From Flavobacteriales bacterium (GTDB lineage: Bacteria > Bacteroidota > Bacteroidia > Flavobacteriales > BACL11), in assembly GCA_028122735.1 (NCBI GenBank), contig JAOHSR010000001.1:15711-79710 (forward strand): a stretch of DNA of 64,000 bases, in the 5' to 3' direction. The notes under the pieces were generated by a model that worked only from the letters and a program-made list of their open reading frames with translations, was not told where the DNA came from and made no database searches. The position numbers were made by a program, and so were the translations under genes. This document shows positions 12,473 through 48,706 of this stretch, in pieces. How positions within the stretch are numbered: the stretch's first letter is position 1; each line of letters starts with the position of its first letter.

Positions 12473-12510
12473 AATATCTTACTATATTTACTCCAGTTAA
12501 AACACTACAA

Positions 12511-14381: not shown

Positions 14382-14383
14382 AA

Positions 14384-31926: not shown

Positions 31927-33258
31927 TTAGCGATTAAACATCAATCGCATCCCTTTTTTACTTTCATCGAAGACTCCTTTTTCATAAGCAATGTGTCCAT
32001 TTACAATCGTGTACTCCACTTGCCCATTTAACTTTTCCCCAACAAAAGGTGACCATCCACATTTGGATAATATTTTGCCTTCAGTTACTTCATATTCTTT
32101 TTCAATATCAACTAAAACAAGGTCCGCATAATATTTTTCTTTAATAAAACCTCTCTTTTCAATTTGAAAGCATATAGCAGGATTATGACACATTTTCTCC
32201 ACTACCTCTTCAATTGTTATCTTTTTTTCTTTTACAAATTTAAGCATGACTTTTAATGCATTCTCAACAAGCGGACCTCCTGAAGGAGCTTGTAGATATT
32301 TATTGTTTTTTTCTTCTATTGTATGTGGCGCATGATCAGTAGCGATAACATCAAGTCTGTTATCTAACAACGCGGCTAACAATGCATCTTGATCAGACTT
32401 TTCTTTAACAGCGGGATTCCATTTAATATGGGTGCCTTTTGTTTTATAATCATTTGAATTAAAGTATAAATGATGGATACAAACTTCGGCAGTAATTCTT
32501 TTTTCACTGAGAGGTTTTGTATTTGTAAATAGTTGTAATTCCTTTTCAGTCGAAATATGAAAAACATGTAATCTTGTATTATGTTTTTTTGCAAGTTCTA
32601 CTGCTAATGATGAAGATTTATAACATGCATCAACAGATCTTATTTTAGGATGCATTTCAATAGGAATATCCTCTCCAAATTTATTTTTTGCTTCATCAAG
32701 GTTTTTTTGGATAGTCTCCTCATCCTCACAATGGACAGCAATTAAACAGTCTGATTTCTTAAATATTTCTTCAAGAACTTTTTTATTGTCCACTAACATA
32801 TCTCCTGTAGAGGAGCCCATAAATATTTTAATTGCACCAACATGCTTTGGATTAGTTTTTAATACCTCGGATAAATTATTGTTTGATGCCCCCATAAAGA
32901 AACTGAAATTTGCAATTGATTTTTTGTCTCCTAGTTGAAATTTTTCCTCTAAAAGTTCTTGCGTCAAAGTTTGAGGTTTTGTATTTGGCATCTCCATAAA
33001 AGAAGTTATTCCTCCTGAAATAGCAGCCTTACTTTCGGTATATATTTCTGCTTTATGCATTAACCCAGGTTCTCTAAAATGCACCTGATCATCAATAATT
33101 CCAGGAATAAGATGCAATCCCATTGCGTCAATAACTCTATCTGCACTCTCATGAATTTTTGGAGCTATTTTTTTTATAATTTTTTCTTCAACAAGTAGGT
33201 CTGAGTAGAAACTTTTACCTTGGTTTACAAGTTTTGCATTTTTAATTAGTAACTTCAC
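31927..33258 (-). CDS. pyrC: dihydroorotase (cyclic amidohydrolase)
   Basis: 443 aa. Motifs are IDDQVHFREPG (the HxH-equivalent site), AVHCED and ATDHAPH. Confidence 0.8.
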   Translation of the reverse strand: MKLLIKNAKLVNQGKSFYSDLLVEEKIIKKIAPKIHESADRVIDAMGLHLIPGIIDDQVHFREPGLMHKAEIYTESKAAISGGITSFMEMPNTKPQTLTQELLEEKFQLGDKKSIANFSFFMGASNNNLSEVLKTNPKHVGAIKIFMGSSTGDMLVDNKKVLEEIFKKSDCLIAVHCEDEETIQKNLDEAKNKFGEDIPIEMHPKIRSVDACYKSSSLAVELAKKHNTRLHVFHISTEKELQLFTNTKPLSEKRITAEVCIHHLYFNSNDYKTKGTHIKWNPAVKEKSDQDALLAALLDNRLDVIATDHAPHTIEEKNNKYLQAPSGGPLVENALKVMLKFVKEKKITIEEVVEKMCHNPAICFQIEKRGFIKEKYYADLVLVDIEKEYEVTEGKILSKCGWSPFVGEKLNGQVEYTIVNGHIAYEKGVFDESKKGMRLMFNR

Positions 33259-33984
33259 TTAATCCCAGTTTTTGAAATAGCTTTTAATTTTCATTTGCAT
33301 TACCCCAAAAAAGGCTTCGAAGAAAATTCCACCGCTCATTTTTGATGCTCCTTCTTGCCTATCTGTGAAAATTACTGGAACTTCTACCACATTAAATCCA
33401 TACTTCCAAGCAGTAAATTTCATTTCAATTTGAAAAGCATACCCAACAAACTGTATTTTTTCGAGATTTATTTTTTCTAAAACTGATCTTTTGTAGCACT
33501 TAAAACCTGCAGTAGAATCATGAATAGGCATACCAGTAATAATTTTCACATATTTTGAAGCAAAGAAAGACATGAGTAGCCTACTCATTGGCCAATTAAC
33601 AATATTTACCCCTTTAATGTATCTTGATCCAATTGCAACATCACCTTTTTCTTCATGACATGCTTTATACAAACGTATTAAATCATCTGGATCATGTGAA
33701 AAATCAGCATCCATTTCAAAAATATAATCGTAATTATTTTTCAGAGCCCATTTAAAGCCAAAAATATATGCAGTTCCTAGACCAAGTTTACCAGTTCTTT
33801 CAACAATATGTAATTTTTTAGGATAGGTTTTTTGTATTTTCTTTATAATATTAGCGGTGCCGTCAGGTGATCCATCATCAACAATTAATATGTCAAAATC
33901 AACATCAAGAGAAAAAACTTTTAGAATAATTTTTTCAATATTCTCTTTTTCATTGTATGTTGGGATTATAATAAGCTTAGACAT
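33259..33984 (-). CDS. GT2 polyprenol-phosphate mannosyl/glycosyl transferase (Dpm1/Ppm1-like)
   Basis: 241 aa. Motifs are IIPTYNEKENI, VDDGSPDGT and EMDADFSHDP (DxD). Confidence 0.8.
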   Translation of the reverse strand: MSKLIIIPTYNEKENIEKIILKVFSLDVDFDILIVDDGSPDGTANIIKKIQKTYPKKLHIVERTGKLGLGTAYIFGFKWALKNNYDYIFEMDADFSHDPDDLIRLYKACHEEKGDVAIGSRYIKGVNIVNWPMSRLLMSFFASKYVKIITGMPIHDSTAGFKCYKRSVLEKINLEKIQFVGYAFQIEMKFTAWKYGFNVVEVPVIFTDRQEGASKMSGGIFFEAFFGVMQMKIKSYFKNWD

Positions 33985-35942: not shown

Positions 35943-36055
35943 ATACTAAACTTATTAATATTAATTCTATATAATTAACACTTGTTTATTTTATAATATA
36001 ATGTTGATTTTACATCTATATCTTTTTGTAAATTAGCCGTTATAAAAAAATAAAT

Positions 36056-36979
36056 ATGAAAAGAATTTTACAACTAATATTTACTACTTTCCTTGCATTG
36101 CCATTATTTGCTCAAGATTGTACAGAACTTTTTTTTTCTGAATATGTTGAGGGACCCGCCAACAATAATGGTGTAGAAATATATAATCCTTCAAATAATA
36201 ATTTTGATTTAAGTGCATACTCTGTGAACCGTTATTCTAACGGATCAAGTTCTGGACCTGAATCCTGGCCTTTATCTGGAACTATTGTTCCTGGACAGGC
36301 TGTTTCTATTGGAAATGGACAACTTGATTCAGTTTGGGTTACTTCATATTGGTCAGTACCTGTTGATCCGGTCTTTTACAATGCAACAAATTTACATTGT
36401 AGTGGAGTTTATCCAACACCATTTTATTTTAATGGTGATGATGCAATTACTCTTGAAAAAGATGGAGGAATAATTGATATAATTGGGAAGGTTGGAGAGG
36501 ATCCTGGATCTGCATGGACAGATGATGCTACAGCAGGATATACAGATGCAAACGGTGGTACATGGTGGACAAAAAGACAGACATTAGTTAGAAAATCTTC
36601 TGTAAAAAAGGGAGTTACTATGAACCCAATTGTTTTTAATCCAACTTTAGAATGGGATTCTCTTCCAGATGGCACTTACTCTGGTCTTGGATCACATAAC
36701 TGTGATTGTATTTCTTCAACAAATATTTCACAAGGTGAAAATGAAAGTTTTGTAGTATATCCTAATCCAGCAAATATTGGAGATAATATAGTAATTAACA
36801 CTTATAACAAGATAGATAGAGTAGTAGTATATGATATTAGTGGTAAATCATTTCTTGTGAACAAAATAAATGCCAACAGATTAGTATTTCCAACAAATAC
36901 CTTAAGTTCTGGAAGTTATATTTTAAAAGCTTGGCTTGATACAGGCTCTTTTGTTGAGCACAAAATTATTATCCGCTAG
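36056..36979 (+). CDS. T9SS-secreted lamin-tail-domain (LTD) protein
   Basis: 307 aa with a signal peptide (ALPLFAQD). LTD-like segments are LFFSEYVEGPANNNGVEIYNPS, GDDAITLEKDGGIIDIIGKVGEDPG and TLVRK. A T9SS C-terminal sorting domain occupies roughly 36749..36976 (FVVYPNPANIGD...YILKAWL...KIIIR). Confidence 0.7.
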   Translation: MKRILQLIFTTFLALPLFAQDCTELFFSEYVEGPANNNGVEIYNPSNNNFDLSAYSVNRYSNGSSSGPESWPLSGTIVPGQAVSIGNGQLDSVWVTSYWSVPVDPVFYNATNLHCSGVYPTPFYFNGDDAITLEKDGGIIDIIGKVGEDPGSAWTDDATAGYTDANGGTWWTKRQTLVRKSSVKKGVTMNPIVFNPTLEWDSLPDGTYSGLGSHNCDCISSTNISQGENESFVVYPNPANIGDNIVINTYNKIDRVVVYDISGKSFLVNKINANRLVFPTNTLSSGSYILKAWLDTGSFVEHKIIIR

Positions 36980-36991
36980 TTTCATAAATAT

Positions 36992-39808
36992 TTGTTTTTG
37001 ATTACTCGAATTCTATTAATTTTTTCATGTTTTGTTTTTAGTCAGCAAAGCATCCATTCTCAAACTACTATTCGTGGTATGGTTAGCGATGCAATTTCTG
37101 GCGAACCCTTAATAGGCGCTACAATAATTTATGGAAAAGGTAAAGGAGTTGTTTCCGACTTAGAAGGGAACTACTCTTTTTTGATTAACCAAGGAGAGCG
37201 TAATTTAACGATTTCCTATGTTGGCTATAAACCACTTTCCAAAACAATATCTGTAGGAAAAACATCTGCTGTACATAATTTTAAATTAAAAACTCTATTG
37301 CTAAATGAGGTTCAAGTCTTAGTTGATTTGGCAAAGGAAAGAGAAACTCCAGTTGCTTTTTCAAGCATTCCAATAAAGAAAATTTCTGAGGAATTAGCCT
37401 CTCAAGATATTCCGATGATTTTAAATTCTACGCCAGGAGTTTATGCTACTCAATCAGGTGGTGGAGATGGAGATGCTAGAATTACAATAAGAGGATTCAA
37501 TCAAAGGAATGTTGCTGTGATGATTGATGGAATTCCGGTAAATGACATGGAGAATGGCTGGGTATACTGGAGTAATTGGTTTGGTTTAGATGCAGTAACT
37601 TCTAATATTCAGGTTCAAAGAGGATTAGGGGCATCAAAAATTGCAATCCCCTCTGTTGGAGGAACTATGAATATACTTACAAAGGGTACAGGAAATAAAT
37701 CGGGTGGAACCATAAAACAAGAGCTAGGTTCTTTTGGTAAATTACGAACATCACTTGGGTATAATACTGGTAAATTAAAAAATGGATGGGGCCTAACTTT
37801 GGCAGGCTCATACAAACAGGGTAATGGTTTTGTTGAGGAAACTTCAACCCAAGGTTTTTTTTACTATACAAAAATTCAAAAAGAATTAGGTAAACACATA
37901 TTAAGTTTTTCACTTATGGGTGCTCCTCAAAAGCATGGGCAGCGTTCATATAAAAGTGATATAGCAACATACGATACAAGCTTTGCGAGATCACTTGGGG
38001 ATACATCTAGTTTTTCTAATCGAATTGTAAATAAAGGAATTCAATATAATAAACATTGGGGCTTTTTAGATAGATGGACACTAAATTCTAATGGAGATAC
38101 TTTACACTCTAACGAAACATTAAACACCAAACAAAATTATTATCATAAACCACAGTTTTCACTACGAGATTTCTGGACAATTAACAAAAGATTACATGTT
38201 TCTAATATTGCTTATTTATCAATAGGAAACGGAGGAGGAACTGGTCTAAGTGGTAACTCCAGTAATTATGATGAATTAGGAAGATATAATTTGCAGGAAG
38301 CTTATGACCTTAATGTGACTAACATTGATCCATTTTACTCTAACGAAAACAAATCAGAAACATATCTTAGGAGCTCAGTTAATAATCATTTTTGGTATGG
38401 CTTATTATCTACAGTTAATTTTAAAAGTACTGAGAGAATTAATTTATCAGGAGGTATTGATATAAGGTATTATAAGGGGGAACATTACAGAGAGGTATAT
38501 GATTTATTAGGAGGTGACTATGCAATTGATGATGCTAACGGTCTTCAAACTTCTCAGGTGAAAAGAGGAGGTGATAAGGTGGGATATCACAATGACGGTA
38601 TAGTTAAGTGGATTGGTGGATTTTCTCAAATTGAATATAGTGATGGAAAAATAAGTGCTTTTGTTAATTTGTCTGCGGCTAATTCTGCATACAAAAGAAT
38701 TGATCATTTTAAAAAGAAGGATCTAGTTTTAGCAGATACTATATTTTCTGAGGCTTTGGGGACATCTGTAAGTACAACATATCAATTTGATGAATCGGGT
38801 AATATAATTGGTGCCGAAAAATCAATGATTGAAGATACTATTTTTTATAATGGTCAATTTTATACTATGAACTCCAATGAAGCAAGATTAGCAGAGACAT
38901 CGTGGAAATGGATTCCTGGATTTACTTTGAAATCTGGTATGAATTATAATATTGATGATTTTCATAATGTTTTTATCAATCTTGGATATATTTCCAAATC
39001 TCCAAGATTTAATAATGTTTATGACTACAGTAATCAACTTTATAGAGACATTAACAATGAGAAAGTAGTTGCCGCTGAGGCTGGTTATTCTTTTAGATCC
39101 TCAATCTTTTCAGCTAATGTAAATACGTACTACACATCATGGCAAAATAAACCATCGAATGGTGGTGTAAGCGTTATGATTGATGATGTAACATACAGAG
39201 CCAATGTAAATGGTATGGATGCACTTCATAAGGGAATAGAGCTAGATTTTATATATAAGATCCAGCATAACTTGAGTGTCGAAGGTTTATTATCTCTTGG
39301 AGATTGGAAATGGAATTCTGCAGATACTGTTAGATTTTTAGATGATAATAATAATCCAATTTTAGACGACTTTAACAATGAAATTATAGCCACATTTGAT
39401 GCAGTCGGAGTTCATGTTGGTGATGCTGCTCAAACTCAATATGGTCTTAGTATGAGATATGAACCAACATTTAACTCTTATATTAAACTTAGAGGAACTT
39501 TATTTGATAATTATTATTCTGATTTTGACCCTTTATCTTTAAATGGAGAAAACGCACAACGTGAGTCTTGGAAAATACCATCTTATACTTTGTTTGATTT
39601 ACATTGTGGTTATAAAATTAAACTTACAGATAAGAATAAACTTAATTTACGATTTAGTATTTTAAATATTTTAGATGAAATGTATATTTCTGATGCACAA
39701 AATAATGACCCGTATAATGCTAACTATCAAGATTTTGATGCTAAATCTGCAGGTGTTTTCTATGGCTTAGGAAGACGCTTTAATTTATCTGCAACTATAA
39801 ACTTTTAA
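36992..39808 (+). CDS. TonB-dependent outer-membrane receptor with CarboxypepD_reg-like N-domain
   Basis: 938 aa with a TTG start and a signal peptide. Contains IRGMVSDAISGEPLIGATII, the plug segment ITIRGFNQRNVAVMIDGIPVND, and a C-terminal beta-strand ending in RFNLSATINF. No SusD-like gene follows. Confidence 0.85.
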   Translation: MFLITRILLIFSCFVFSQQSIHSQTTIRGMVSDAISGEPLIGATIIYGKGKGVVSDLEGNYSFLINQGERNLTISYVGYKPLSKTISVGKTSAVHNFKLKTLLLNEVQVLVDLAKERETPVAFSSIPIKKISEELASQDIPMILNSTPGVYATQSGGGDGDARITIRGFNQRNVAVMIDGIPVNDMENGWVYWSNWFGLDAVTSNIQVQRGLGASKIAIPSVGGTMNILTKGTGNKSGGTIKQELGSFGKLRTSLGYNTGKLKNGWGLTLAGSYKQGNGFVEETSTQGFFYYTKIQKELGKHILSFSLMGAPQKHGQRSYKSDIATYDTSFARSLGDTSSFSNRIVNKGIQYNKHWGFLDRWTLNSNGDTLHSNETLNTKQNYYHKPQFSLRDFWTINKRLHVSNIAYLSIGNGGGTGLSGNSSNYDELGRYNLQEAYDLNVTNIDPFYSNENKSETYLRSSVNNHFWYGLLSTVNFKSTERINLSGGIDIRYYKGEHYREVYDLLGGDYAIDDANGLQTSQVKRGGDKVGYHNDGIVKWIGGFSQIEYSDGKISAFVNLSAANSAYKRIDHFKKKDLVLADTIFSEALGTSVSTTYQFDESGNIIGAEKSMIEDTIFYNGQFYTMNSNEARLAETSWKWIPGFTLKSGMNYNIDDFHNVFINLGYISKSPRFNNVYDYSNQLYRDINNEKVVAAEAGYSFRSSIFSANVNTYYTSWQNKPSNGGVSVMIDDVTYRANVNGMDALHKGIELDFIYKIQHNLSVEGLLSLGDWKWNSADTVRFLDDNNNPILDDFNNEIIATFDAVGVHVGDAAQTQYGLSMRYEPTFNSYIKLRGTLFDNYYSDFDPLSLNGENAQRESWKIPSYTLFDLHCGYKIKLTDKNKLNLRFSILNILDEMYISDAQNNDPYNANYQDFDAKSAGVFYGLGRRFNLSATINF

Positions 39809-39817
39809 CTTACAACT

Positions 39818-41956
39818 ATGAAAAAAATACAACTAATTTTCACTTTAATGTTATTGTCTCAATTAACCTATACTCAAGATATATTAACTGCAAGATCACA
39901 AGGAGTTGGGGCGAATGTAACGGTAACTGGTGTTATAACTAACGGAGACGAATTAGGCTCAATTAGATATATTGAAGATGCTACTGCCGGCTTGGCTTTA
40001 TATGATTTAACAACAAATGTTTTATTAAGCAGTTGTGTTCGTGGAGATAGTATAACTGTTTCTGGAACTTTGGTTGACTATAATGGATTATTAGAACTTA
40101 ACCCAACCTCTGCAGCTTTTATTCATTCAAATGGAAATACTTTACCAACACCTCAGAATGTAACTCCAAATCAAATTGGTGAAGCAACGGAATCTGAATT
40201 AGTTCAAATTGATAATGTCATTTTTAATTCTGGGGGTTCATTATTCACTGTTGGCACACATGATTTTACATCTAACTCTCAATCCGGAAAGATTTATATT
40301 CGATCTGGTCAGCCTTTAGAGAATTCTTTAATTCCTTCTGGCCCAGTAACTTTAATTGGAATTTCTTCTCAATATACTTTTTTCATTCCAGCAAATGATG
40401 GTTATCAAATTCTTCCTAGAGATTCATCAGATATTATACAATCTGGTAATATTATCTTAACTTCAGGTATTACTCAGACAAATATTACCAACAACAGTTT
40501 TGATCTAAGTTGGAGCACTTCAGATTCAGCAACCACTGAATGTAATTACGGACTCACTCCTGCATTAGGAACTGTCGCTAGTAATCCTATTAATCAGATG
40601 AACCACTCAATTAGTTTAACTGGATTACAGTCTGCTACATTTTACTATGCTCAGTGTTTTTCTGTTAGAGGATTAGATACGGCTTTTTCAAATATGGGAA
40701 TTTATTCTACCGCATCAAATTCATCAGGAATAATAAGGCCATATTTTAATCATAGCATTGATAATTCTGTTTCAACAGGAGTTAATGCTCAGAATATAAC
40801 ATCATATTTTAATGATACGATTAAAGCATATATTGATAGAGCAGATAGCACTTTAGATATTTGTGTTTATAATGCATCTGATGCTTTAATTGGATCTGCA
40901 ATTAATGATGCCTATAATAGGGGAGTACAAGTCAGATATATTGCTGATGATGATGTGGTTAACTCAATGCTTAATAGCTTAGACCCAAATATTCCAATTA
41001 CATACAGGACTCCAATTCCAGCAGCTGGAATTATGCATAATAAGTTTTTAGTTATAGATGCAAATTCAGTGAATAATTCTTGGATAATGACAGGATCCAC
41101 AAATTGGACTAACCCAAGTAATTTATTTAATGATTATAATAATTTGATTTTTGTTCAAGATCAGGCTTTAGCTCGTGCTTATACATTAGAATTTGAAGAA
41201 ATGTGGTCTGGAGTTTTTGGTTCAAATAAAGAAGATAATACTCCACATGATTTTAATGTTAATGGAAAACATATGGAATTGTATTTTTCACCCTCTGATC
41301 AGACTACTAGTCATATTTTAGAATTTATCAATTCTGTTGATTATACATTAGAGTTTGCATTGCTTGAATTTACAAGAGATGATGTTGGAGACGCTATAAT
41401 TGACATTCATAATAATTTTGGCACTAATGTTAGAGGTATTATAGAATCTACAAATTCTCAGTATAGTGAATTTTCTAATCTTGATAATGCCGGCGTAAGT
41501 GTCAAATCTCACTCTGGAATTCCTAAATCAATTCATCATAAATATGCTATAGCTGATGCTGATATTACTGCCTCAGACCCAATGCTTTTAACTGGTTCCC
41601 ACAACTGGAGTAATAATGCCGAAAATAATTCTGATGAAAACACGCTAATCATTCATGATCATGCTACTGCTAATATATACCTTCAAGAGTTTACTAAAAG
41701 GTTTAACGAACTTGGTTCAACATCAACAATACATGATTTTATTAAAATTGATGTTAATGTTTATCCAAACCCTTCGATGGGAGAAATTAATATACAGTCT
41801 AAACTAGATATATATAGTATCAATGTGTATCAAGAAGACGGTAAGTTAATCAAGAATACAAACGAAAAAAACTTTTATTTAGAAGGTAATAAAATATATT
41901 TTCTAAAAATATTTACTGATTCTGGGAATATTGTGAAAACAGTATTTGTAAAATAA
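39818..41956 (+). CDS. T9SS-secreted phospholipase D-superfamily enzyme (two HKD motifs; Nuc-like nuclease or phosphodiesterase) with N-terminal OB-like and FN3-like modules
   Basis: 712 aa with a signal peptide. The two HKD motifs are MHNKFLVIDANSVNNSWIMTGSTNWT and IHHKYAIADADITASDPMLLTGSHNWSNNAENNSDEN. An FN3-like segment reads NSFDLSWSTSDSATTECNYG. A T9SS C-terminal domain occupies roughly 41753..41953 (VNVYPNPSMGEINI...). Confidence 0.75.
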   Translation: MKKIQLIFTLMLLSQLTYTQDILTARSQGVGANVTVTGVITNGDELGSIRYIEDATAGLALYDLTTNVLLSSCVRGDSITVSGTLVDYNGLLELNPTSAAFIHSNGNTLPTPQNVTPNQIGEATESELVQIDNVIFNSGGSLFTVGTHDFTSNSQSGKIYIRSGQPLENSLIPSGPVTLIGISSQYTFFIPANDGYQILPRDSSDIIQSGNIILTSGITQTNITNNSFDLSWSTSDSATTECNYGLTPALGTVASNPINQMNHSISLTGLQSATFYYAQCFSVRGLDTAFSNMGIYSTASNSSGIIRPYFNHSIDNSVSTGVNAQNITSYFNDTIKAYIDRADSTLDICVYNASDALIGSAINDAYNRGVQVRYIADDDVVNSMLNSLDPNIPITYRTPIPAAGIMHNKFLVIDANSVNNSWIMTGSTNWTNPSNLFNDYNNLIFVQDQALARAYTLEFEEMWSGVFGSNKEDNTPHDFNVNGKHMELYFSPSDQTTSHILEFINSVDYTLEFALLEFTRDDVGDAIIDIHNNFGTNVRGIIESTNSQYSEFSNLDNAGVSVKSHSGIPKSIHHKYAIADADITASDPMLLTGSHNWSNNAENNSDENTLIIHDHATANIYLQEFTKRFNELGSTSTIHDFIKIDVNVYPNPSMGEINIQSKLDIYSINVYQEDGKLIKNTNEKNFYLEGNKIYFLKIFTDSGNIVKTVFVK

Positions 41957-41959
41957 ATT

Positions 41960-43600
41960 TTATGTTGTTTTAAAAATACCCTCTACTTTTTTAGCAAAGT
42001 ACATTAAGTAAAGGAAGCATATAACAGTTACCCAATAAGAACTATGTATTCCAATAATATCTGCTAATTTTCCTTGAATAGGAGGTATAATTGCTCCTCC
42101 AAGTATCATCATAACTAAAAATGCCGAGCCTTGAGATGTGAATTTACCTAGCCCCTTAATGCTAAGCGCAAAAATAGAAGGCCACATAATAGAACAAAAT
42201 AATCCTCCACTTAGAAAAGCAAAAATTGCAACCGTTCCACTTGTATATAGGCCAAGTATCATTGCAATTACACCAAAGAGCCCAAAAGTTTTTAAGGTTA
42301 ATGCAGGCTTGTCTTTCCCAATGAAAAAACCGGCAATTTGAATAGCTACACAAATACCAAAAGCAAAAAGATGTTTTACTTCAAAACCTGAAATTGCATT
42401 TACTGATAAGACTACTCCAAAAGCAACATATGGTACAATTATATACAGCCACTTTTTTAAAGTATTTGACGGATTGAAAATTGCAATTGCTCCAGTCCAT
42501 CTTCCAATCATTAACCCTCCCCAGTACATTGAAATATAAGGGGCAATTTGAGTGTCATTTAGCGCACCAAATGCTTCTGTTTTTAAAAGTTCCCCTAAAT
42601 TACTCTGAATAGAAACCTCAACGCCTACATAAGTAAAGATTGCTAACATTCCTAAAACAAGTTGCGGGTATTGCATTGCTCCCCAACCATCTGCATCTTT
42701 TTTGGCTAAAAAATTAGATAAAAATAACCCTCCTACTACAACCGCAAGACTTAATAGAGACAAATTTAGTATTAAAGAATCGGATTCTTCGCTTAGAGAC
42801 TCTCCTTCACCTAAACCAACATATTGGTTAAAAACAAAGTAAAATATTATTATTAAAAGAATAGTTATTGTTATTAATGATGTCATGGCTTTTGATGCAC
42901 CTAAAAAACTTGCATCTTCTTTTCCTTCAGGTAATTTTTTTGAAAAATGAAATAATGCTGCAGCTGCTAAAAATAAAACTCCAACAGCAATATATAAATA
43001 CTGCACAACAGTAAGGGAAATATTGTCATTTGCAATTTCAGAAACTAAATCAATATTTGCACTAGCTGCTGTACCAAACAATGCTAAGGAAACAACAATA
43101 GGACCGATTGCAGTTCCAAAAGAATTAACTCCACCAGCAAGATTAAGTCTATGAGATCCTTTATCAGGATCACCTAATGAGATTGCAAAAGGATTTGCAG
43201 CCGTTTGCTGTAATGAAAACCCTAGTCCAACTATAAAAAGGGCACCTAAAATATAATTAAAGGTAGTTGAATCTCCATGAGAAGCTCCATTTACTGCCAT
43301 TACCATAGCACCTGCACCTAAGGCTGAAAGTATAAGGCCTTTTACAATACTACTTTTAAATCCCCATGAATTCATAATATCAGTATTTCTGAGACTTGAG
43401 GAAATAAATAAAAATAAGGCGCCAATATAATATGCTCCATAAAATGCGAAATCAATTAACTGACTTTGAAATTGATCTAAACTAAAATATGTTTTGCAAA
43501 ATGGAATAAATACTCCGTTACTTGCCGCAATAAATCCCCAAAAGAAAAATACTGTTACTAAGGTTAATAATGCCTGTTTATAATTTTTATTTTCACTCAT
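41960..43600 (-). CDS. MFS sugar transporter of the FucP / glucose-galactose (NagP-like) family
   Basis: 546 aa with at least 12 hydrophobic helices. The N-terminus [18 protein letters not shown] resembles FucP-family transporters. The substrate is inferred from context only. Confidence 0.7.
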
Positions 43601-43607
43601 TTTAATT

Positions 43608-46532
43608 TTATTTTATAGTTATTTCATCAACAAAAATCCAAGTTTTGCCTCCAGCACCTAAATGCCAATCTGGGCAAATTCCATAATTTTCTGCTTTAAT
43701 TTTTATATACCTAGCTTTTAAATTTTTAACATTCAATTTAAAGTCCTTTTGTAAACTTCCTTCAATATTGTTAGGAAAGTTTGCTAATACTTTTCCTTGA
43801 TATGTATAGTTTTCACCATCAAGCGAGCTCCAGTAATCTACTTGTTTTGGATAAAAGATCCACGACCTAACATCTTGATGACAGCCCAAAGATATTGAAT
43901 TAATTTTTTTCACTTTACTAATATCAACTATAACATTTAAATCTTCTCGGTATCCTTGCCAGTTTCCTGTCCTGTAATTATTTCCACCTCTTAGCTGATC
44001 AATTAATGTTTTATCTCCTGCTGCTGCATATTGATTGGCATATGTGCTTAGGATTTTAATTTTCTTACTATCGTCTCTAGGGAAGTATTCACTAGTAACA
44101 GTCTTACTTTTAATTTTGTTTTTTTGGGCATAGCTAGAAATTATACTTTGTTCATTTATAATTATTGGTTTATCATATTTTTTATATTCACTATTATTTA
44201 AAGAATAAAATATATCCGATCCATCCACAGTCCCAAGTACAACGGTATGTCTTTCAACAAATGTTTGACTTGACGCAGAGAAAAAAGGTACTGCTACAAT
44301 TTGATGTTTTGTTATTTCAGAAACAGGTATATCATCTCCTCCCCACTTGCTAGGCTTATTTCCCATAATAAAATCAAGCTCACCTCCATTTAAAATTGTA
44401 GAGTGATGTAAAAAACTTTTGTTGTACTCCTGCCCATTTAATTTAGCCGCTTGAATGTAGATGTTTTTATCAGAAACATTTTTTGCTTTTATTATAAAAC
44501 TATTATTATTTTCTAAATTAATTTTTGCTCTTTTGAAAAGAGGAGTTCCTATTGTATAGTAATCATGTCCTGGTGTTACTGGATAGAAGCCAAGACTACT
44601 TAAAACATACCATGAAGACATTTGCCCACAATCTTCATTCCCCGACAAACCATCTGGGTGTTCAGAATACTGTTCATTCAGAATTTTAGCTATATACTTT
44701 TGTGTTTTAGCTGGTTTACCAATATAATTATAAAGATAGGCCATGTGGTGACTTGGCTCATTTCCATGTGCATATTGTCCAATTAAGCCAGTTACATCTG
44801 GCTGGTGCCTTCCAGTTGTTTTAATTTTAGAAAGAAACATACTGTCGAGATGTTTTTCATAATTTTCTTTGCCTCCTTTCAAATCGATATGTCCTGAAAT
44901 ATCCTGAGGTGTGAATAAAGAGTATTGCCAGGCATTAGCCTCAGTGTAGTTGAAATTTACTTCCTCAGGCTTAAAAGGTCCAAACCAAGAGAATGCATTT
45001 TTACCTCTAAAGAAACCTGATTTTGGATCATATAAATTTTTATAATATTGAGCTCTTTTATAGAAAATTTCTGCAATCGAATCTTGACCGAGAGAATCTG
45101 CCATGATAGCAATACACCAATCATCATATGCATACTCAAGATTTTTTGAAACTGATTCCGGTTCATCACTTGCTTTAATAAATCCATTTTTCTTGTATGC
45201 TACTAATCCAAATTTGTCATTTTGAGCGGAATTTATCATAGCTTCAAGAGCTAAATTAGCATCCCAATCTCTTATTCCTTTAATATACGCATCAACTATA
45301 ACTGGTATTGCGTGATATCCAATCATACAATCTGTATAATTTGCTGCTAATTCCCAGATTGGTAATCTTCCGCCATCTTGATATTGTCGTAACAATGTTC
45401 TAATAAATTCATTTGTTTTTTCAACATTAATCATTGTAAACAAAGGATGAGTGGCACGAAAAGTATCCCAAAGTGAGAAAATGGTATAATGCTTATCTTC
45501 TGTAGAATGTTTTTTAAAATCCATACCTAAATAATTTCCATTTAGATCATTATAGGTATTAGGATTTAATGAAGAATGATACAGTGCTGTATAAAAAATT
45601 TCTTTTTTAGATTTTGAATTTGTTGTGATCTCTATTTTTTTTAATTCATTTTCCCAAATGTTTTGAGCTTCTGTTTTTACCTTTTCAAAATCCCAATCAC
45701 TAATTTCACTAAGATTCCCAATAGCTCCGTCAATGTCAACAGCAGAAATTGAAGCTTTAATTTCTAAGGGTTCTGAAATTTTGCCAAAAGCAAGAGCAAG
45801 TACATTCTTTTCATTATTAAATCCTTCATAATCACTATTGAGTTCAGCATCTGATGTTATTGGATTTAAAAAAGGAATAGAAAATTTAAGTATAAAATAA
45901 ATTCTTTGATCTCGCGCCCACTCTGTCGAATGTCTAAATCCAGTAATTGTTTGACTATCAATTATATTGATTTTATAATCAAGCAGTTTATCTCTGTGTT
46001 TAAGGTCTAGAATTACATTTGCATCTTCGTTTTTTGGATAGGTATATCTATGCACACCTGTTCGAATAGAGCTTGTGAGTTCAACATTAATACTATAATC
46101 ATCTAGTAGAACTTGATAATAACCAGCTTGTGCTATTTCATTTTTATGTGAGAATTTTGATGCATAACCAAGATTATTAATTGGAGCATTATTAATTTTT
46201 GCTTCATCTACTCCATTGGTTAATTGTATTTTTCCAGTTGTAGGCATTAACAAAACATCTGCATAGTCAGAGATTCCTGTTCCGCTTAGATGTGTGTGTG
46301 AAAATCCGTAAATAATAGAGTCTGAGAAATGATAACCCCCACAACCGTCCCACCCTTCTAGCCTTGTGTCAGGACTAAGTTGAACCATTCCAAAAGGAGC
46401 TGAAACTCCTGGGTAAGTGTGGCCATGACCACCAGTTCCAATAAAAGGATTAACATATTTTACTAAATTTTCTTTGTTTTCTTGACATGAAATAAGAAGA
46501 ATAGATAGAAGTATTAAATAAGTTTTTTTCAT
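43608..46532 (-). CDS. GH92 alpha-mannosidase lipoprotein with C-terminal discoidin/CBM32-like module
   Basis: 974 aa with lipobox LLISCQEN. Carries the GH92 hallmark [29 protein letters not shown] and [12 protein letters not shown]. The last ~146 aa resemble a galactose-binding-like fold. Confidence 0.88.
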
Positions 46533-48706
46533 TGTATTATAAATTCATCAATAAATACCCAGCTGTTTGATCCTGCAGCTGGATGTCGTTTTGGTAAAGT
46601 TCCATAATTTTTTGCCTTAAGTCTTACATATCTTGCGGATTGTTCACCATGATAACTAAATTGTTCTTTAAATTTCCCTTCTTGCATTGGATTACAAATC
46701 TGATCTTTATAAAATATTCTGGAGAATGTTTCTCCATTATCAGAAACAAGATACTCAATAGACTTAGGAAGTAAAATCCAAGAAAGATGATACTGAAAAT
46801 AAGATGAGCTTAATTCACTAAATTTGGTTTTTTCTCCTAAATCAATGATGACATCAATATTTGTTCCATAAAATCCTTGCCATTGTCCATCTCTAAAGTT
46901 ATGCTTACTTCCTGCTATTCCATTTACTAGTGTTTTTTCTTTATCAGCTTGATAGCTTGGGTTATAATTTGTTTTATAAATAGTTTTTTTATCAAGTCCT
47001 TTATGGAAATTAAATTCTAAGTTTTTAGTGGCCACTACTTTTCTTTTTGAATTTTTCTCTTTAACTATTAGATTTGTATTTTTTTTGAATTTTAAAGGCA
47101 CTAAATAATCTTTCCATCCTTGATTATTTAAATTATATTCTAGATTCATTTTTGAGTTTCCTTTTTCAACACTAACAATAAATTCATTTTCTTTAAATGT
47201 AGAGTTAAATTTTATAGGGGTCTTTTCATAACCATAATTAACGCCAAGTCTATCAAGTTTAGGATAATGTTTTTCTACGCGATTTGAAAACCCTGTGTAG
47301 TCTTTTTCTTTTTCAGACCAAAGAACTTCACTCATTGCTAAAATTCTTGGAAATACTTTGGAGTCAATTAATTCTTGAGGCGCTCTCTCACTCCACATAT
47401 TGCATTCTCCACCGATTATAAATTTACTCTCAGATTGAGTAAGCTGCTGTGGTATTGGTTCAAATGAATATACTTTTTCAAGATCAATAGCGTCTAGCTC
47501 ATAATCAAAATAGCAATGTGAGGTTGGTGACATTATTGCTTGGTTTTGATTTTTTGCAGCAATAATTCCACCCTCCATTCCTCTCCAAGATTGAATAATG
47601 GCATTTTCTGGAATACCACCTTCAATTATTTCATCCCAACCAATCAATCTTTTATTTTTAGTTTTTAAAAAATCACCTATTCTTTTTATGAAGTAAGATT
47701 GTAGCTCATGCTCATCTTTAAGATTGTTGTTAATTATTCTTTTCTGACACTTAGAACAATTTTCCCAGTGATATTTTGGAGCTTCGTCACCACCAATATG
47801 AATATATTTTGAAGGAAAAAGTTCAATGACTTCTTCTAAAACATCTTCAAGAAAAGTGAATACACTATCATTCCCCGCACAATAGATATCCTTAAAAACA
47901 CCCCAATCAGCTTCTACTTTAATAGAATCTCCTGTGCACGATAAGTATGGGTATGATGCTATAGCAGCAATACTATGGCCCGGAAGTTCAATCTCAGGTA
48001 TGATTTCAATTCCACGATTTTCAGCATATAATACTATTTCTTTTATGTCTTTTTTTGTATAAAAACCACCATATTTTTCTCCATCTTTATTTTCTCTCCA
48101 CGCTCCAATTTCTGTAAGCTTCGGATATTTTTCAATTTCAATTCTCCAACCTTGATCTTCTGTTAAATGCCAATGTAGAATATTCATTTTATGAAAAGCT
48201 AAAAGGTCAATATACCTTTTTACAAAATCTTTTTGCATGAAATGACGGCAGCAGTCTAACAATAATCCTCTCCATTTAAATCTAGGGAAGTCGTGAATTT
48301 CTAGGCAATTGATACTGATTTTTTTTGAAGAAATATTCTCATATATTGGTACAATTTGCCTCAAACTTTGGATTCCATGCATAATACCATTAGGCGAAGA
48401 TGCTTCAATGATAATTTGATTTTCTAAAATTTTTAAAAAGTATTCTTCTTTTAAAAGCAGATTGTTTTTTTTGAAGTAGACAGTATTTTTTTCTTTTACA
48501 TCTTGAATTGAAAATATTTTTTGAAAATATTTTTTTTCTCTTACAAATAAGCTATCACTAATTATTTGAGTATTTGAACTCCAATTGTAAAAACCCTCAT
48601 TTAAAATCATCTTTACAGGTTGGGGGATAATTGTTGGATTGGATACCACTATCTGTTTATCTTGACATGAAAGCAAAAGCAATAAAAAAAATAGATATCT
48701 AATCAT
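46529..48706 (-). CDS. GH20 beta-N-acetylhexosaminidase lipoprotein with C-terminal discoidin/CBM32-like module
   Basis: 725 aa with lipobox LLLSCQDK. GH20 motifs are HWHLTEDQGWRIEI and HIGGDE (the catalytic D-E pair). Its stop overlaps the GH92 start by 4 nt. Confidence 0.88.
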   Translation of the reverse strand: MIRYLFFLLLLLSCQDKQIVVSNPTIIPQPVKMILNEGFYNWSSNTQIISDSLFVREKKYFQKIFSIQDVKEKNTVYFKKNNLLLKEEYFLKILENQIIIEASSPNGIMHGIQSLRQIVPIYENISSKKISINCLEIHDFPRFKWRGLLLDCCRHFMQKDFVKRYIDLLAFHKMNILHWHLTEDQGWRIEIEKYPKLTEIGAWRENKDGEKYGGFYTKKDIKEIVLYAENRGIEIIPEIELPGHSIAAIASYPYLSCTGDSIKVEADWGVFKDIYCAGNDSVFTFLEDVLEEVIELFPSKYIHIGGDEAPKYHWENCSKCQKRIINNNLKDEHELQSYFIKRIGDFLKTKNKRLIGWDEIIEGGIPENAIIQSWRGMEGGIIAAKNQNQAIMSPTSHCYFDYELDAIDLEKVYSFEPIPQQLTQSESKFIIGGECNMWSERAPQELIDSKVFPRILAMSEVLWSEKEKDYTGFSNRVEKHYPKLDRLGVNYGYEKTPIKFNSTFKENEFIVSVEKGNSKMNLEYNLNNQGWKDYLVPLKFKKNTNLIVKEKNSKRKVVATKNLEFNFHKGLDKKTIYKTNYNPSYQADKEKTLVNGIAGSKHNFRDGQWQGFYGTNIDVIIDLGEKTKFSELSSSYFQYHLSWILLPKSIEYLVSDNGETFSRIFYKDQICNPMQEGKFKEQFSYHGEQSARYVRLKAKNYGTLPKRHPAAGSNSWVFIDEFIIQ

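What the first reader, a model, noticed from the sequence alone, without database searches (positions are those of the whole stretch)
36056..41956. LTD protein, TonB-dependent receptor and T9SS-secreted two-HKD PLD enzyme: candidate extracellular nucleic-acid or phosphodiester capture-and-uptake operon
Three same-strand genes are separated by only 12 and 9 nt.

- **Gene 1** is a T9SS cargo. Its body carries the lamin-tail-domain signature (LFFSEYVEGPANNNGVEIYN ... TLVRK).
- **Gene 2** is a 938-aa TonB-dependent receptor with no SusD partner.
- **Gene 3** is a second T9SS cargo. Its N-terminal module resembles the OB-like module that follows the LTD in ExeM/NucH-type extracellular nucleases. 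An FN3-like module and two intact HKD motifs follow.

Together the two secreted proteins rebuild the LTD + OB + catalytic architecture of ExeM/NucH nucleases. Here it is split over two genes. A PLD/Nuc-type catalytic domain replaces the usual endonuclease/exonuclease/phosphatase domain. Both genes flank an outer-membrane importer.

I know of no TonB-dependent receptor established to import nucleic-acid breakdown products. A dedicated eDNA or phosphodiester scavenging module would therefore be new, and plausible for a phosphorus-limited marine flavobacterium. The alternative reading is phospholipid head-group scavenging.
Basis: partly seen in the sequence, partly recalled or inferred. Interest (0 to 1): 0.65.

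Follow-up and report, generated by a model that had tools for sequence, protein, structure and literature searches.

The report
Secreted-nuclease plus TonB DNA-uptake locus
Three tightly packed genes in a marine flavobacterium encode a small secreted surface protein, an outer-membrane importer and a secreted DNA-binding nuclease that together look like a machine for harvesting environmental DNA; I found no description of this widespread variant, which resembles a DNA-utilisation system described in gut Bacteroides in 2025.

Summary
Three same-strand genes lie 12 and 9 nt apart.

- **Gene 1:** signal peptide, lamin-tail domain (LTD) and T9SS C-terminal domain (CTD).
- **Gene 2:** a 938-aa TonB-dependent receptor that is not SusC-type.
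- **Gene 3:** DUF5689, an FN3-like module, two intact HKD (PLD) halves and a CTD-like end.

The nucleic-acid reading is well supported.

- The PLD halves are closest in sequence to the nucleases Nuc, NucT and Zucchini.
- The DUF5689 module folds as a tandem OB domain like HIN-200 DNA binders.
- In sister loci with the same LTD gene and receptor clade, the PLD is replaced by Endonuclease I behind the same DUF5689 module.
- Single-chain LTD-DUF5689-PLD fusions exist.
- Related PLD enzymes also sit in receptor + DUF5689(+DUF5017) loci, the architecture of Riemerella's transformation genes and Bacteroides ddbCD.

The triad occurs in 18 of 80 species-level loci across Bacteroidota. All 8 receptor-anchored look-ups showed LTD upstream and a T9SS nuclease downstream.

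This is a new variant of a known kind. I found no description of its T9SS-anchored, LTD-partnered, PLD/EndoI-swapping form. Import, substrate and phosphate control are untested.

The parts
36023..36037 (+). Conserved promoter-like element TTTTTGTAAATTAGC, about 20 nt upstream of the gene 1 start. It is the only candidate promoter position for the three genes.
   Evidence: The upstream regions of six related loci were aligned, and TTTGTA..TTAGC is conserved in most of them. It contains the TTTG core typical of Bacteroidota -7 elements (own knowledge). The 12-nt and 9-nt intergenic gaps leave no room for internal promoters.
36056..36979 (+). Gene 1: a 307-aa secreted LTD protein. It has a signal peptide (cleavage probably before Q20), a lamin-tail domain (about aa 22-190), a linker, and a T9SS type A C-terminal domain (aa 234-306).
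   Evidence: Pfam LTD and Por_Secre_tail and TIGR04183 all score above cut-off, and residues 9-232 align to the ExeM N-terminus. Full-length relatives were found only directly upstream of clade-A receptors: 18 genome loci and all 8 receptor-anchored look-ups.
36992..39808 (+). Gene 2: a 938-aa TonB-dependent receptor of 'clade A'. It has a signal peptide, a carboxypeptidase-regulatory-like N-terminal extension (aa 27-109), a TonB-box-like NEVQVLV (about aa 104-110), a plug (aa 116-224), a large barrel, and a terminal Phe.
   Evidence: Pfam hits are. E106 and many plug and barrel positions are invariant in 22 relatives. It aligns over its full length with the DUF5689-partnered receptor clade (hhalign E 1.5e-66), and reciprocal HMM hits separate both clades from ordinary receptors.
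39818..41956 (+). Gene 3: a 712-aa secreted DNA-binding nuclease candidate (DUF5689, FN3-like, two-HKD PLD, CTD-like).
   Evidence: The AlphaFold model has pLDDT 88.4 and pTM 0.71. The family has at least 785 clusters (50% identity) at E <= 1e-30.
39872..40459 (+). Gene 3 DUF5689 module (aa 19-214): a tandem OB fold and the predicted DNA-binding part.
   Evidence: The domain model has pLDDT 92 and pTM 0.87. Its best PDB matches are HIN-200 DNA-binding domains (p204, IFI16, p202, AIM2, MNDA) and RPA. It is 45% identical to the N-terminal module of an Endonuclease-I enzyme in a sister locus.
40466..40708 (+). Gene 3 FN3-like beta-sandwich spacer (aa 217-297).
   Evidence: The Pfam fn3 hit is sub-threshold. 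The model shows an all-beta segment with pLDDT above 90, and FN3 hits appear in many homologues.
40733..41713 (+). Gene 3 catalytic region: two PLD halves (aa 306-465 and 478-632). HKD motif 1 lies at 41036-41059 (H407-D414) and HKD motif 2 at 41534-41557 (H573-D580).
   Evidence: PLDc_2 matches twice and NucT models hit both halves. Sequence matches in the PDB are Zucchini/MitoPLD and Nuc. The motifs are invariant in the family. Fold matches are PLD3/PLD4, Zucchini, NucT and Nuc.
41753..41953 (+). Gene 3 C-terminal beta-sandwich (aa 646-712): a probable T9SS type A sorting domain.
   Evidence: Hits are sub-threshold in this copy but above threshold in homologues. The model shows an all-beta fold.

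Best explanation
This is a T9SS-dependent extracellular nucleic-acid utilisation locus, a lipoprotein-free counterpart of the Bacteroides ddb DNA-utilisation loci.

**Proposed mechanism (inferred).**
1. One promoter upstream of gene 1 drives all three genes.
2. The type IX secretion system exports gene 1 (LTD protein) and gene 3 to the cell surface through their C-terminal sorting domains.
3. Gene 3 holds DNA (possibly also RNA) with its tandem-OB DUF5689 module. It cuts phosphodiester bonds with a single active site built from its two HKD halves, by the metal-independent mechanism known for other PLD-family nucleases (own knowledge).
4. The TonB-dependent receptor (gene 2) takes the resulting oligonucleotides across the outer membrane, using TonB energy.
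5. The LTD protein is invariably encoded just upstream of this receptor clade. It acts as an accessory surface subunit that binds substrate or docks the complex on the receptor.
6. Enzymes encoded elsewhere release nucleosides, bases and phosphate for nutrition.

**Shown here:** gene order, domain content, folds, family-wide conservation, fusions and the catalytic-domain swap.

**Inferred:** nuclease activity, what the receptor imports, the role of the LTD protein, and the nutritional purpose.
For: 1. **The gene order is conserved while flanks change.** The order LTD, receptor, DUF5689-PLD occurs in 18 of 80 species-level loci. These span Flavobacteriales, Chryseobacterium, Saprospiraceae, Bacteroidales, Prolixibacteraceae, Phaeodactylibacter and Sphingobacteriales. 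It also appeared in all 8 look-ups anchored on receptors 45-55% identical to gene 2, with different flanking genes.
2. **The catalytic domain is swapped in the same context.** Four of those 8 receptor-anchored loci have a T9SS Endonuclease-I enzyme in place of the PLD. It still carries the DUF5689 module: L088 residues 21-206 are 45% identical to gene 3, and L090/L092/L094 score E about 1e-16. Two unrelated catalytic folds in one slot, one of them an Endonuclease-I/DNase-I-family domain by profile match, point to a nucleic-acid substrate.
3. **The PLD halves resemble nucleases.** They match NucT models and, among solved structures, Zucchini and Nuc by sequence. Fold matches include the ssDNA exonucleases PLD3/PLD4. 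Both HKD motifs are invariant.
4. **DUF5689 looks like a DNA binder.** It folds as a tandem OB domain whose best matches are HIN-200 DNA-binding domains and RPA. Sharan et al. reported the same for DdbD.
5. **Rosetta-stone fusions exist.** LTD+DUF5689+FN3+PLD+CTD occurs in one chain in P0335 and P0387 and in five solitary genome loci. This parallels ExeM, which is LTD + 2xOB + EEP.
6. **The enzyme family also sits in loci built like the characterised ones.** Gene-3-type PLD enzymes follow a receptor and a DUF5689(+DUF5017) protein in L019, L034, L038 and L055. That is the architecture of Riemerella RA0C_RS04915/04920 and of B. thetaiotaomicron DdbC/DdbD.
7. **Gene 2's receptor clade is specifically related to that partnered clade.** Alignment is full-length (hhalign E 1.5e-66). 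The clade-B HMM hits every full-length clade-A receptor at 140-206 bits (contig-truncated fragments less), but gave no hit to five ordinary receptors and only 31 bits to a sixth, partial one.
Against: - No activity, binding or transport has been measured for any member of this variant.
- I could not obtain DdbC or RA0C_RS04915 sequences. The link to the characterised transporters therefore rests on an intermediate clade recognised by its partner's domain architecture, and on 21-23% identity.
- About 37 of roughly 60 PLD loci with enough upstream DNA have no receptor nearby. The enzyme therefore does not need this transporter.
- The 80 loci are the best-scoring of at least 576, not a random sample.
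- The fold alone does not separate nucleases from phospholipid enzymes: the top full-length match is annotated phospholipase D, and PssA also matches.
- ExeM lacking its LTD keeps most of its activity, so the LTD's role is unclear.
- Sharan et al. found DNA a poor sole C, N or P source for B. thetaiotaomicron, so a nutritional pay-off is not guaranteed.
- No nucleotidase, phosphatase or nucleoside transporter is encoded next to the locus in this window.
Confidence: 0.65

Rival explanations
1. This is a DNA-uptake front end for natural transformation. The receptor brings long DNA into the periplasm for ComEC/DprA-dependent recombination, as proposed for Riemerella RA0C_RS04915/04920. The surface nuclease only trims or nicks incoming DNA.
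For: In Riemerella, a receptor + DUF5689/DUF5017 pair next to a ddbB-like nuclease gene is essential for transformation. Gene-3-type PLD enzymes occur in loci of that architecture. Flavobacteriales include naturally competent species.
Against: In this variant the DNA-binding module is fused to a nuclease. That nuclease is freely exchanged for Endonuclease I, a non-specific degradative enzyme family (own knowledge), which fits digestion better than preservation of long DNA. The variant is spread over many lineages not known to be competent. No competence genes lie in the window.
Confidence: 0.15
2. The locus remodels extracellular DNA without importing it. The secreted nuclease and LTD protein degrade matrix or environmental DNA (biofilm control or defence, as for BT3563). 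The receptor imports something else or has a structural or anchoring role.
For: BT3563 in the ddb region acts in bile-dependent biofilm formation by degrading eDNA. Most gene-3 relatives are solitary, without any receptor.
Against: The LTD gene and a DUF5689-nuclease flank this receptor clade in every case with enough sequence: 18 genome loci and 8 of 8 receptor-anchored look-ups. The receptor clade is specifically related to the DUF5689-partnered clade. Such strict linkage is hard to explain if the receptor's ligand were unrelated.
Confidence: 0.12
3. The locus scavenges phospholipid or other phosphodiester head groups. The PLD domain hydrolyses phospholipids or small phosphodiesters, and the receptor imports the released head groups or phosphate esters.
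For: The catalytic domain belongs to the PLD superfamily. The best full-length fold match is annotated phospholipase D, and phosphatidylserine synthases also match.
Against: No phospholipase or cardiolipin-synthase family models were hit at E <= 0.1; only NucT models were. Per-half sequence identity is highest to nucleases. The enzyme carries a tandem-OB DNA-binding-type module. Endonuclease I replaces the PLD in the same slot. LTD fusions mimic the nuclease ExeM.
Confidence: 0.05

Closest known systems
ddbABCDEF DNA-utilisation locus of Bacteroides thetaiotaomicron (Sharan et al., PNAS 2025, PMC12478041; BT3560-3563 of Bechon et al. 2022, PMC8851478)
   Same: A TonB-dependent transporter gene is followed directly by a gene beginning with DUF5689, whose fold resembles HIN-type DNA binders. 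Secreted nucleases lie in the same operon. The overall logic resembles a polysaccharide-utilisation locus, applied to DNA.
   Different: - DUF5689 is fused to the nuclease rather than being a separate SPII lipoprotein.
- Surface display uses T9SS C-terminal domains, not lipidation.
- The nuclease is PLD-type (or Endonuclease I in sister loci) rather than EEP-type, as BT3562/BT3563 are annotated.
- An LTD protein is an invariant extra member.
- The receptor belongs to a different clade, only 21-23% identical to the DUF5689-partnered clade I could sample.
- The loci have three genes, not six.
Riemerella anatipestifer natural-transformation genes RA0C_RS04915 (CarboxypepD_reg outer-membrane protein) and RA0C_RS04920 (DUF5689+DUF5017) (Huang et al. 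2021, PMC8459023)
   Same: The order is Flavobacteriales. The receptor is recognised only by its carboxypeptidase-regulatory and plug parts. A DUF5689 protein lies downstream and a nuclease gene is adjacent. Loci of exactly this architecture (L038, L055) use a gene-3-type PLD enzyme.
   Different: The window has no DUF5017 and no separate DUF5689 protein. The window locus shows no link to competence genes. Function there is transformation; here digestion is more likely.
ExeM/NucH extracellular nucleases (Shewanella ExeM; Binnenkade et al. 2018, PMC6085458)
   Same: The module order is LTD, tandem OB, then catalytic domain. Gene 1 aligns to the ExeM N-terminal region (E 1.6e-19). Fused LTD-DUF5689-PLD proteins reproduce the single-chain layout.
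   Different: The catalytic domain is PLD, not EEP. The architecture is split over two genes around a transporter. Sorting uses a T9SS CTD rather than GlyGly-CTERM/rhombosortase. The OB modules show no detectable sequence similarity.
PLD-superfamily nucleases Nuc (Salmonella plasmid), NucT (Helicobacter) and Zucchini/MitoPLD; also PLD3/PLD4
   Same: HxKxxxxD and GSxN motifs are present. Each half superposes on these nucleases (TM 0.77-0.82 normalised to the target, 21-29% identity). The two-HKD single chain resembles PLD3/PLD4, which are ssDNA exonucleases.
   Different: Nuc, NucT and Zucchini are single-HKD homodimers, whereas here two halves sit in one chain. The added DUF5689, FN3 and CTD modules, the extracellular T9SS display and the linkage to a transporter are absent from these families.
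SusCD-type polysaccharide utilisation loci
   Same: The logic is the same: surface binding proteins and a surface hydrolase feed a TonB-dependent transporter that carries an N-terminal carboxypeptidase-regulatory-like extension.
   Different: There is no SusD. The receptor gives no SusC/RagA model hit. The substrate is predicted to be nucleic acid. The partners are T9SS cargo, not lipoproteins.
Flavobacterium johnsoniae EndA1/EndA2 (Fjoh_4721/4723; LTD+FN3+Endonuclease_1), induced by phosphate depletion (Lidbury et al. 2020, PMC8115612)
   Same: These are Bacteroidota surface nucleases that combine LTD, FN3 and a nuclease domain. They provide experimental evidence that such enzymes belong to a phosphate-starvation response.
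   Different: The catalytic domain differs. They are listed as 'orphan' genes, and no receptor linkage is reported. Whether the window locus responds to phosphate is unknown.

Membership tests
Ddb-type DNA-utilisation / DdbCD-like transporter loci | A TonB-dependent transporter homologous to DdbC (or RA0C_RS04915). | tested here: inconclusive
   No DdbC or RA0C_RS04915 sequence could be fetched. Gene 2's clade aligns over its full length (21-23% identity; hhalign E 1.5e-66) with a receptor clade that is always followed by DUF5689(+DUF5017) proteins. Reciprocal HMMs separate both clades from ordinary receptors. For scale, Sharan et al. report about 25% identity between accepted DdbC types.
Ddb-type DNA-utilisation / DdbCD-like transporter loci | DUF5689 is encoded immediately downstream of the transporter. 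| tested here: met
   Gene 3 starts 9 nt after gene 2 and opens with DUF5689 (39.3 bits against a cut-off of 28.6). Its tandem-OB fold matches HIN domains.
Ddb-type DNA-utilisation / DdbCD-like transporter loci | The DUF5689 partner is a separate lipoprotein (SPII). | tested here: not met
   DUF5689 is the N-terminal module of a 712-aa enzyme. That enzyme has a non-lipoprotein signal peptide (no lipobox Cys in MKKIQLIFTLMLLSQLTYTQD) and a C-terminal T9SS-type domain.
Ddb-type DNA-utilisation / DdbCD-like transporter loci | Secreted nuclease(s) lie in the locus, and the locus is required for DNA depletion. | not testable with these tools
   A nuclease-type PLD is present by homology, and Endonuclease I replaces it in sister loci. 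Activity and phenotype need experiments.
PLD superfamily, Nuc/NucT/Zucchini-like nuclease branch | HxKxxxxD catalytic motifs with the downstream GSxN. | tested here: met
   There are two complete motifs, invariant in 40 relatives. PLDc_2 matches twice.
PLD superfamily, Nuc/NucT/Zucchini-like nuclease branch | The closest sequence relatives are nucleases rather than lipid enzymes. | tested here: met
   Only NucT models hit in NCBIfam. PDB sequence hits are Zucchini and Nuc. Per-half identity of 21-29% to Zucchini, NucT and Nuc compares with 9-16% to the other full-length PLD-fold matches (lipid enzymes, PLD3/PLD4, F13, PPK1).
PLD superfamily, Nuc/NucT/Zucchini-like nuclease branch | Single-HKD subunit acting as a homodimer. 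| tested here: not met
   Both halves are in one chain (aa 306-465 and 478-632), as in PLD3/PLD4.
ExeM/NucH extracellular nucleases | N-terminal lamin-tail domain. | tested here: met
   Gene 1 residues 9-232 align to ExeM model positions 12-191 (E 1.6e-19), and Pfam LTD scores above cut-off. The LTD sits on a separate polypeptide here.
ExeM/NucH extracellular nucleases | EEP (endonuclease/exonuclease/phosphatase) catalytic domain in the same chain. | tested here: not met
   There is no EEP hit in genes 1-3. The full ExeM model score is far below its cut-off (69.5 against 1300).
T9SS type A cargo | C-terminal sorting domain (TIGR04183 / PF18962). | tested here: met
   Gene 1 scores 41.6 bits (cut-off 23) and 33.2 bits (cut-off 27).
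T9SS type A cargo | C-terminal sorting domain in gene 3. | tested here: inconclusive
   The window copy scores below cut-off (21.8 against 27; 16.8 against 23). Homologues pass, and the model shows a terminal beta-sandwich.
TonB-dependent receptors | Plug domain, TonB box, and a 22-strand barrel ending in an aromatic residue. | tested here: met
   Plug scores 53 bits. The NEVQVLV motif has an invariant E106. The protein ends in Phe. The Pfam barrel model does not hit this copy but does hit a few close relatives (P0203, P0228). The barrel region aligns to an ordinary receptor by hhalign. The strand count was not modelled.
SusC/RagA transporters of polysaccharide utilisation loci | SusC/RagA signature and an adjacent SusD-family gene. 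| tested here: not met
   There is no SusC/RagA model among the NCBIfam hits and no SusD-like neighbour.

The most novel reading that the evidence does not exclude
The small LTD-CTD protein is the dedicated extracellular subunit of a previously unrecognised clade of TonB-dependent transporters. Together with a DUF5689-nuclease, it forms a T9SS-assembled, lipoprotein-free counterpart of SusCD that feeds DNA or RNA fragments into the cell. Because the locus is common in abundant marine Flavobacteriales and many other Bacteroidota, it would be a major and so far uncounted route of dissolved DNA (organic phosphorus and nitrogen) turnover. It would also give the bacterial lamin-tail domain its first defined function.
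Probability: 0.3. Interest if true: 0.75.

Novelty: new variant of a known kind. Interest (0 to 1): 0.55.

Why it matters
Dissolved DNA is a large pool of organic phosphorus and nitrogen in the sea, and flavobacteria are leading degraders of polymers. The route by which they take up DNA has nonetheless not been defined.

This locus offers a compact, testable three-gene candidate. Its distribution is wide: thousands of receptor homologues and at least 785 enzyme clusters.

- **Reach of the new system class.** It extends the newly described Bacteroides DNA-utilisation loci to free-living Bacteroidota. It shows that the system can be built from T9SS cargo instead of lipoproteins.
- **Modularity.** The nuclease slot accepts either PLD or Endonuclease I behind one DNA-binding module.
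- **A role for the LTD.** It points to a concrete role for the bacterial lamin-tail domain, whose function is unknown.
- **Annotation.** It supplies a functional annotation for a large family now labelled 'phospholipase D-like' or 'hypothetical'.

Tried and rejected
- **Exact-sequence look-up of gene 3.** It is not on record.
- **Fetching DdbC, BT3560 or RA0C_RS04915 sequences.** No tool route was available.
- **Solved-structure search with gene 2.** It matched only the N-terminal extension of SusC-like proteins, which is uninformative about substrate.
- **Phospholipid reading.** Considered and rejected; see the rivals.
- **Generic iron or B12 receptor reading.** JGI names and weak BtuB hits cover only the plug region. 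I rejected this as evidence of substrate.
- **Co-occurrence of pyrC and a GT2 gene beside the locus.** Considered as a possible functional link. It is more likely inherited housekeeping synteny and was left as a side note.
- **Literature searches for this variant** (LTD + TonB; PLD + T9SS; DNA utilisation + Bacteroidota). They found no description. The library is open-access only, so this is not proof of absence.

Full report
**1. What is in the sequence**

Three + strand ORFs sit at 36056-36979 (307 aa), 36992-39808 (938 aa, TTG start) and 39818-41956 (712 aa). The gaps between them are 12 and 9 nt.

The unit is bounded on both sides:
- Upstream lies a divergently transcribed acetyl-CoA synthetase gene.
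- Downstream lies a convergent MFS transporter gene whose stop codon is 3 nt from that of gene 3.
- Beyond that come GH92 and GH20 genes.

The window is about 30% G+C. Its closest relatives are marine 'Flavobacteriales bacterium' MAGs. A motif, TTTTTGTAAATTAGC (36023-36037), is conserved upstream of gene 1 in related loci. It is the only plausible promoter position.

**2. Domain content**

*Gene 1.* It has a signal peptide, a lamin-tail domain and a T9SS type A C-terminal domain, all above curated cut-offs. Residues 9-232 align to the N-terminal region of the ExeM model.

*Gene 2.* It has a carboxypeptidase-regulatory-like N-terminal extension, a TonB-box-like NEVQVLV, a plug, a long barrel region and a terminal Phe. 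It gives no SusC/RagA hit and has no SusD neighbour. Solved structures match only its N-terminal extension.

*Gene 3.* It has DUF5689 (above cut-off) and two PLDc_2 halves. The FN3 and CTD hits are sub-threshold. A confident AlphaFold model (pLDDT 88.4) shows both of those as beta-sandwiches, and homologues carry clear CTD hits.

Both HxKxxxxD/GSxN motifs are invariant in 40 relatives that are 34-83% identical.

**3. Is the PLD a nuclease or a lipid enzyme?**

*Sequence.*
- The only NCBIfam families hit are NucT nucleases.
- The only solved structures found by sequence are Zucchini/MitoPLD and Nuc.

*Fold.* The full model matches two-HKD enzymes of mixed function: an entry named phospholipase D, the ssDNA exonucleases PLD3/PLD4, vaccinia F13, PssA and PPK1. 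Each half superposes best, and with the highest identity (21-29%), on Zucchini, NucT and Nuc. Fold alone does not decide the question.

*Genomic context.* This is the decisive evidence.
- I searched with a profile of diverse gene-2-type receptors and looked up eight of them, 45-55% identical to gene 2.
- All eight had an LTD-CTD gene directly upstream and a T9SS enzyme downstream.
- In four loci the enzyme was DUF5689-PLD.
- In the other four it carried an Endonuclease_1 domain, with weak deoxyribonuclease I model hits in the two I scanned.
- The Endonuclease-I enzymes keep the DUF5689 module. In L088 it is N-terminal and 45% identical to gene 3 over residues 21-207, with no other similarity between the two proteins.
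- In L090, L092 and L094 the module follows the catalytic domain.

Two unrelated catalytic folds are thus exchanged behind one binding module, in one conserved slot. That argues strongly that the substrate is nucleic acid.

**4. The binding modules**

I modelled the DUF5689 module alone (residues 19-214; pLDDT 92, pTM 0.87).
- It is a tandem OB fold.
- Its best PDB matches are HIN-200 DNA-binding domains (p204, IFI16, p202, AIM2, MNDA), RPA and single OB folds.
- TM-scores are modest (0.36-0.42), probably because the two OB halves are oriented differently.
- Sharan et al. reported the same p202-type similarity for DdbD.
- Relatives with 2-4 DUF5689 repeats give weak hits to OB-fold nucleic-acid-binding families.

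The LTD is linked to the enzyme by fusion.
- P0335 and P0387 carry LTD+DUF5689+FN3+PLD+CTD in one chain.
- So do the long solitary enzymes of L059, L068, L071, L074 and L077.
- This reproduces the layout of ExeM, which is LTD, two OB-like regions and an EEP domain.

**5. Conservation**

The gene-3 family is large: 785 clusters (50% identity) at E <= 1e-30, and nearly all of the top 150 are full-length.

A genome scan with the family alignment found at least 576 relatives among GTDB species representatives and returned the best 80. My ORF and HMM analysis of those 80 gave the following:

| Class | Loci |
|---|---|
| Triad, in the order LTD, receptor, PLD (one, L047, permuted) | 18 |
| Triad receptor present but cut off by a contig end | 3 |
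| Partial variant receptor, not immediately adjacent (L033) | 1 |
| A different receptor clade followed by DUF5689(+DUF5017) proteins, then the PLD (L019, L034, L038, L055) | 4 |
| Ordinary receptor upstream, next to a PLD lacking DUF5689 | 2 |
| No receptor, among roughly 60 loci with at least 4.2 kb upstream | about 37 |

- The 18 triad loci come from Flavobacteriales, Chryseobacterium, Saprospiraceae, Bacteroidales, Prolixibacteraceae, Phaeodactylibacter and Sphingobacteriales.
- Every gene-2-type receptor with enough upstream sequence has a full-length gene-1-type protein just upstream. Such proteins were found nowhere else.
- Flanking genes differ among lineages: RuvB, Pif1, Mfd, a methyltransferase, or Acs. 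The conserved unit is the triad itself.
- Close relatives (69-81% identity) keep both the triad and its flanks.

The 80 loci are ranked by similarity, so the fractions are not population estimates.

**6. Relation to what is known**

- Huang et al. 2021 showed that Riemerella RA0C_RS04915 and RA0C_RS04920 are essential for natural transformation. RA0C_RS04915 is an outer-membrane protein with a carboxypeptidase-regulatory domain, and RA0C_RS04920 carries DUF5689+DUF5017. The authors proposed that the pair carries DNA across the outer membrane.
- Sharan et al. 2025 showed that B. thetaiotaomicron ddbABCDEF is required for DNA depletion and for production of uracil and xanthine from DNA. The locus comprises the TonB-dependent transporter DdbC, the DUF5689 protein DdbD and three nucleases. 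They also showed it is related to the Riemerella genes. The same region is BT3560-3563.

The four 'clade B' loci above have exactly those architectures and use a gene-3-type PLD as their nuclease.

Gene 2's clade A and clade B are related as follows:
- They share 21-23% identity over 850-1000 residues, whereas an ordinary receptor aligns by BLASTP only over the N-terminal ~300 residues.
- hhalign gives E 1.5e-66. Single clade-B sequences score 317-362, against 249 for the ordinary receptor.
- The clade-B HMM hits every full-length clade-A receptor at 140-206 bits. It gave no hit to five ordinary receptors and only 31 bits to a sixth, partial one.

This supports a common DNA-transporter superfamily. 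I could not obtain DdbC or RA0C_RS04915 themselves, so direct membership is untested.

Neither paper mentions PLD enzymes, LTD proteins, T9SS or marine taxa. Literature searches found no description of this variant.

**7. Mechanism proposed, and its limits**

The proposed sequence is:
1. T9SS export of the LTD protein and the DUF5689-PLD enzyme.
2. DNA capture by the tandem OB module.
3. Metal-independent cleavage at the HKD site.
4. TonB-driven import of fragments through gene 2.
5. Further breakdown by enzymes encoded elsewhere.

Gene content, folds, fusions, the domain swap and linkage are shown here. Nuclease activity, the imported species, the role of the LTD and the physiological purpose are inferred.

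Points against over-reading:
- Most family members are solitary enzymes.
- ExeM lacking its LTD remains largely active.
- DNA was a poor sole nutrient for B. thetaiotaomicron.
- No phosphatase, nucleotidase or Pho element accompanies the locus in the window.

The only experimental hint of phosphate control comes from LTD-FN3-Endonuclease_1 enzymes of F. johnsoniae, which are induced by phosphate depletion.

Natural transformation remains a live rival. Matrix-DNA remodelling without import is less likely, and lipid head-group scavenging is unlikely.

**8. Verdict**

- The functional interpretation is largely supported by independent comparative evidence.
- The claim of conceptual novelty is not supported.

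The locus is best filed as a new variant of the recently recognised Bacteroidota DNA-uptake/utilisation systems. It differs in five ways:
- T9SS anchoring.
- A fused DUF5689-nuclease.
- A PLD catalytic module that is interchangeable with Endonuclease I.
- An obligate LTD partner.
- A separate receptor clade.

Interest is moderate to good (0.55). The variant is common, ecologically relevant and directly testable, but the underlying idea is already published.

Noticed in passing
window 31927-33984 (- strand); also L086 12471-14706, L090 12404-15405, L092 11197-13348, L094 11650-13794, L096 11411-13658: A dihydroorotase gene (pyrC; NF006688, 699 bits) and a small GT2 polyprenol-phosphate glycosyltransferase-like gene lie beside the DNA locus in the window. 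They also lie beside it in loci from several sampled receptor sub-clades, often followed by a MORN_2 protein. This is either inherited housekeeping synteny or a link to pyrimidine metabolism.
   Followed up: partly
L086 15233-16297 (-), L087 11421-12485 (-), L090 16176-16754 (-), L094 2724-3815 (-), L095 2550-3641 (-), L096 14151-14826 (-): An Exo_endo_phos_3 protein lies a few genes from the triad in loci whose receptors were named Bacteroidales or Bacteroidota MAG by their sources. In the one I scanned (L086) its core matches the ExeM/NucH DNase model (E 9e-18). It may be a further nuclease of the same system. The window has no counterpart.
   Followed up: partly
L088 9788-10719 and L089 4581-5512; L090 13439-13986; L094 11253-11639: Toxin-antitoxin-type genes are inserted inside or right after the locus: DUF6922 + AbiEii between the receptor and the nuclease, and PemK-type toxins downstream. 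The conserved three-gene order is preserved around them.
   Followed up: no
window 41960-49683 (- strand); same in L001-L003: A convergent cluster resembles an N-glycan salvage set: a GluP/FucP-type MFS transporter, GH92 alpha-mannosidase and GH20 hexosaminidase in the window, plus an Asparaginase_2 gene in the related loci L001-L003 (the window ORF at that position was not scanned). An MFS + GH92 pair also sits near the triad in L084. No functional link to the DNA locus is evident.
   Followed up: partly
L049 8689-9747, L056 8776-9747, L070 9797-10900 (Hymenobacter): In Hymenobacter a separate DUF5689+FN3 protein of about 320-370 aa, without a catalytic domain, is encoded immediately upstream of the full DUF5689-FN3-PLD enzyme. 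This looks like a duplicated binding module acting as a stand-alone accessory protein.
   Followed up: partly
L085 3015-4112: In one triad locus an alkaline phosphatase gene lies about 1.7 kb upstream of the LTD gene, separated from it by a Pif1-type helicase gene. This was not seen in the other loci, so it is no evidence for a general phosphate link.
   Followed up: no
L057 9917-11566, L061 2119-3756, L060, L078, L082: Shorter family members (about 520-550 aa) lack DUF5689 and start at the FN3 module. Two of them follow an ordinary TonB-dependent receptor with a normal Pfam barrel hit. This may be a third kind of receptor association.
   Followed up: no
window 36992: Gene 2 has no ATG near its 5' end. 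The ORF opens with TTG, and a second in-frame TTG lies two codons later. Relatives are mostly 935 aa against 938 aa here, so the true start may be a few codons downstream.
   Followed up: partly
window 12409-15826: A tryptophan 2,3-dioxygenase gene and an aldehyde dehydrogenase gene lie close together. This may be part of a kynurenine-type pathway and is unrelated to the finding.
   Followed up: no
[not shown]
   Followed up: yes
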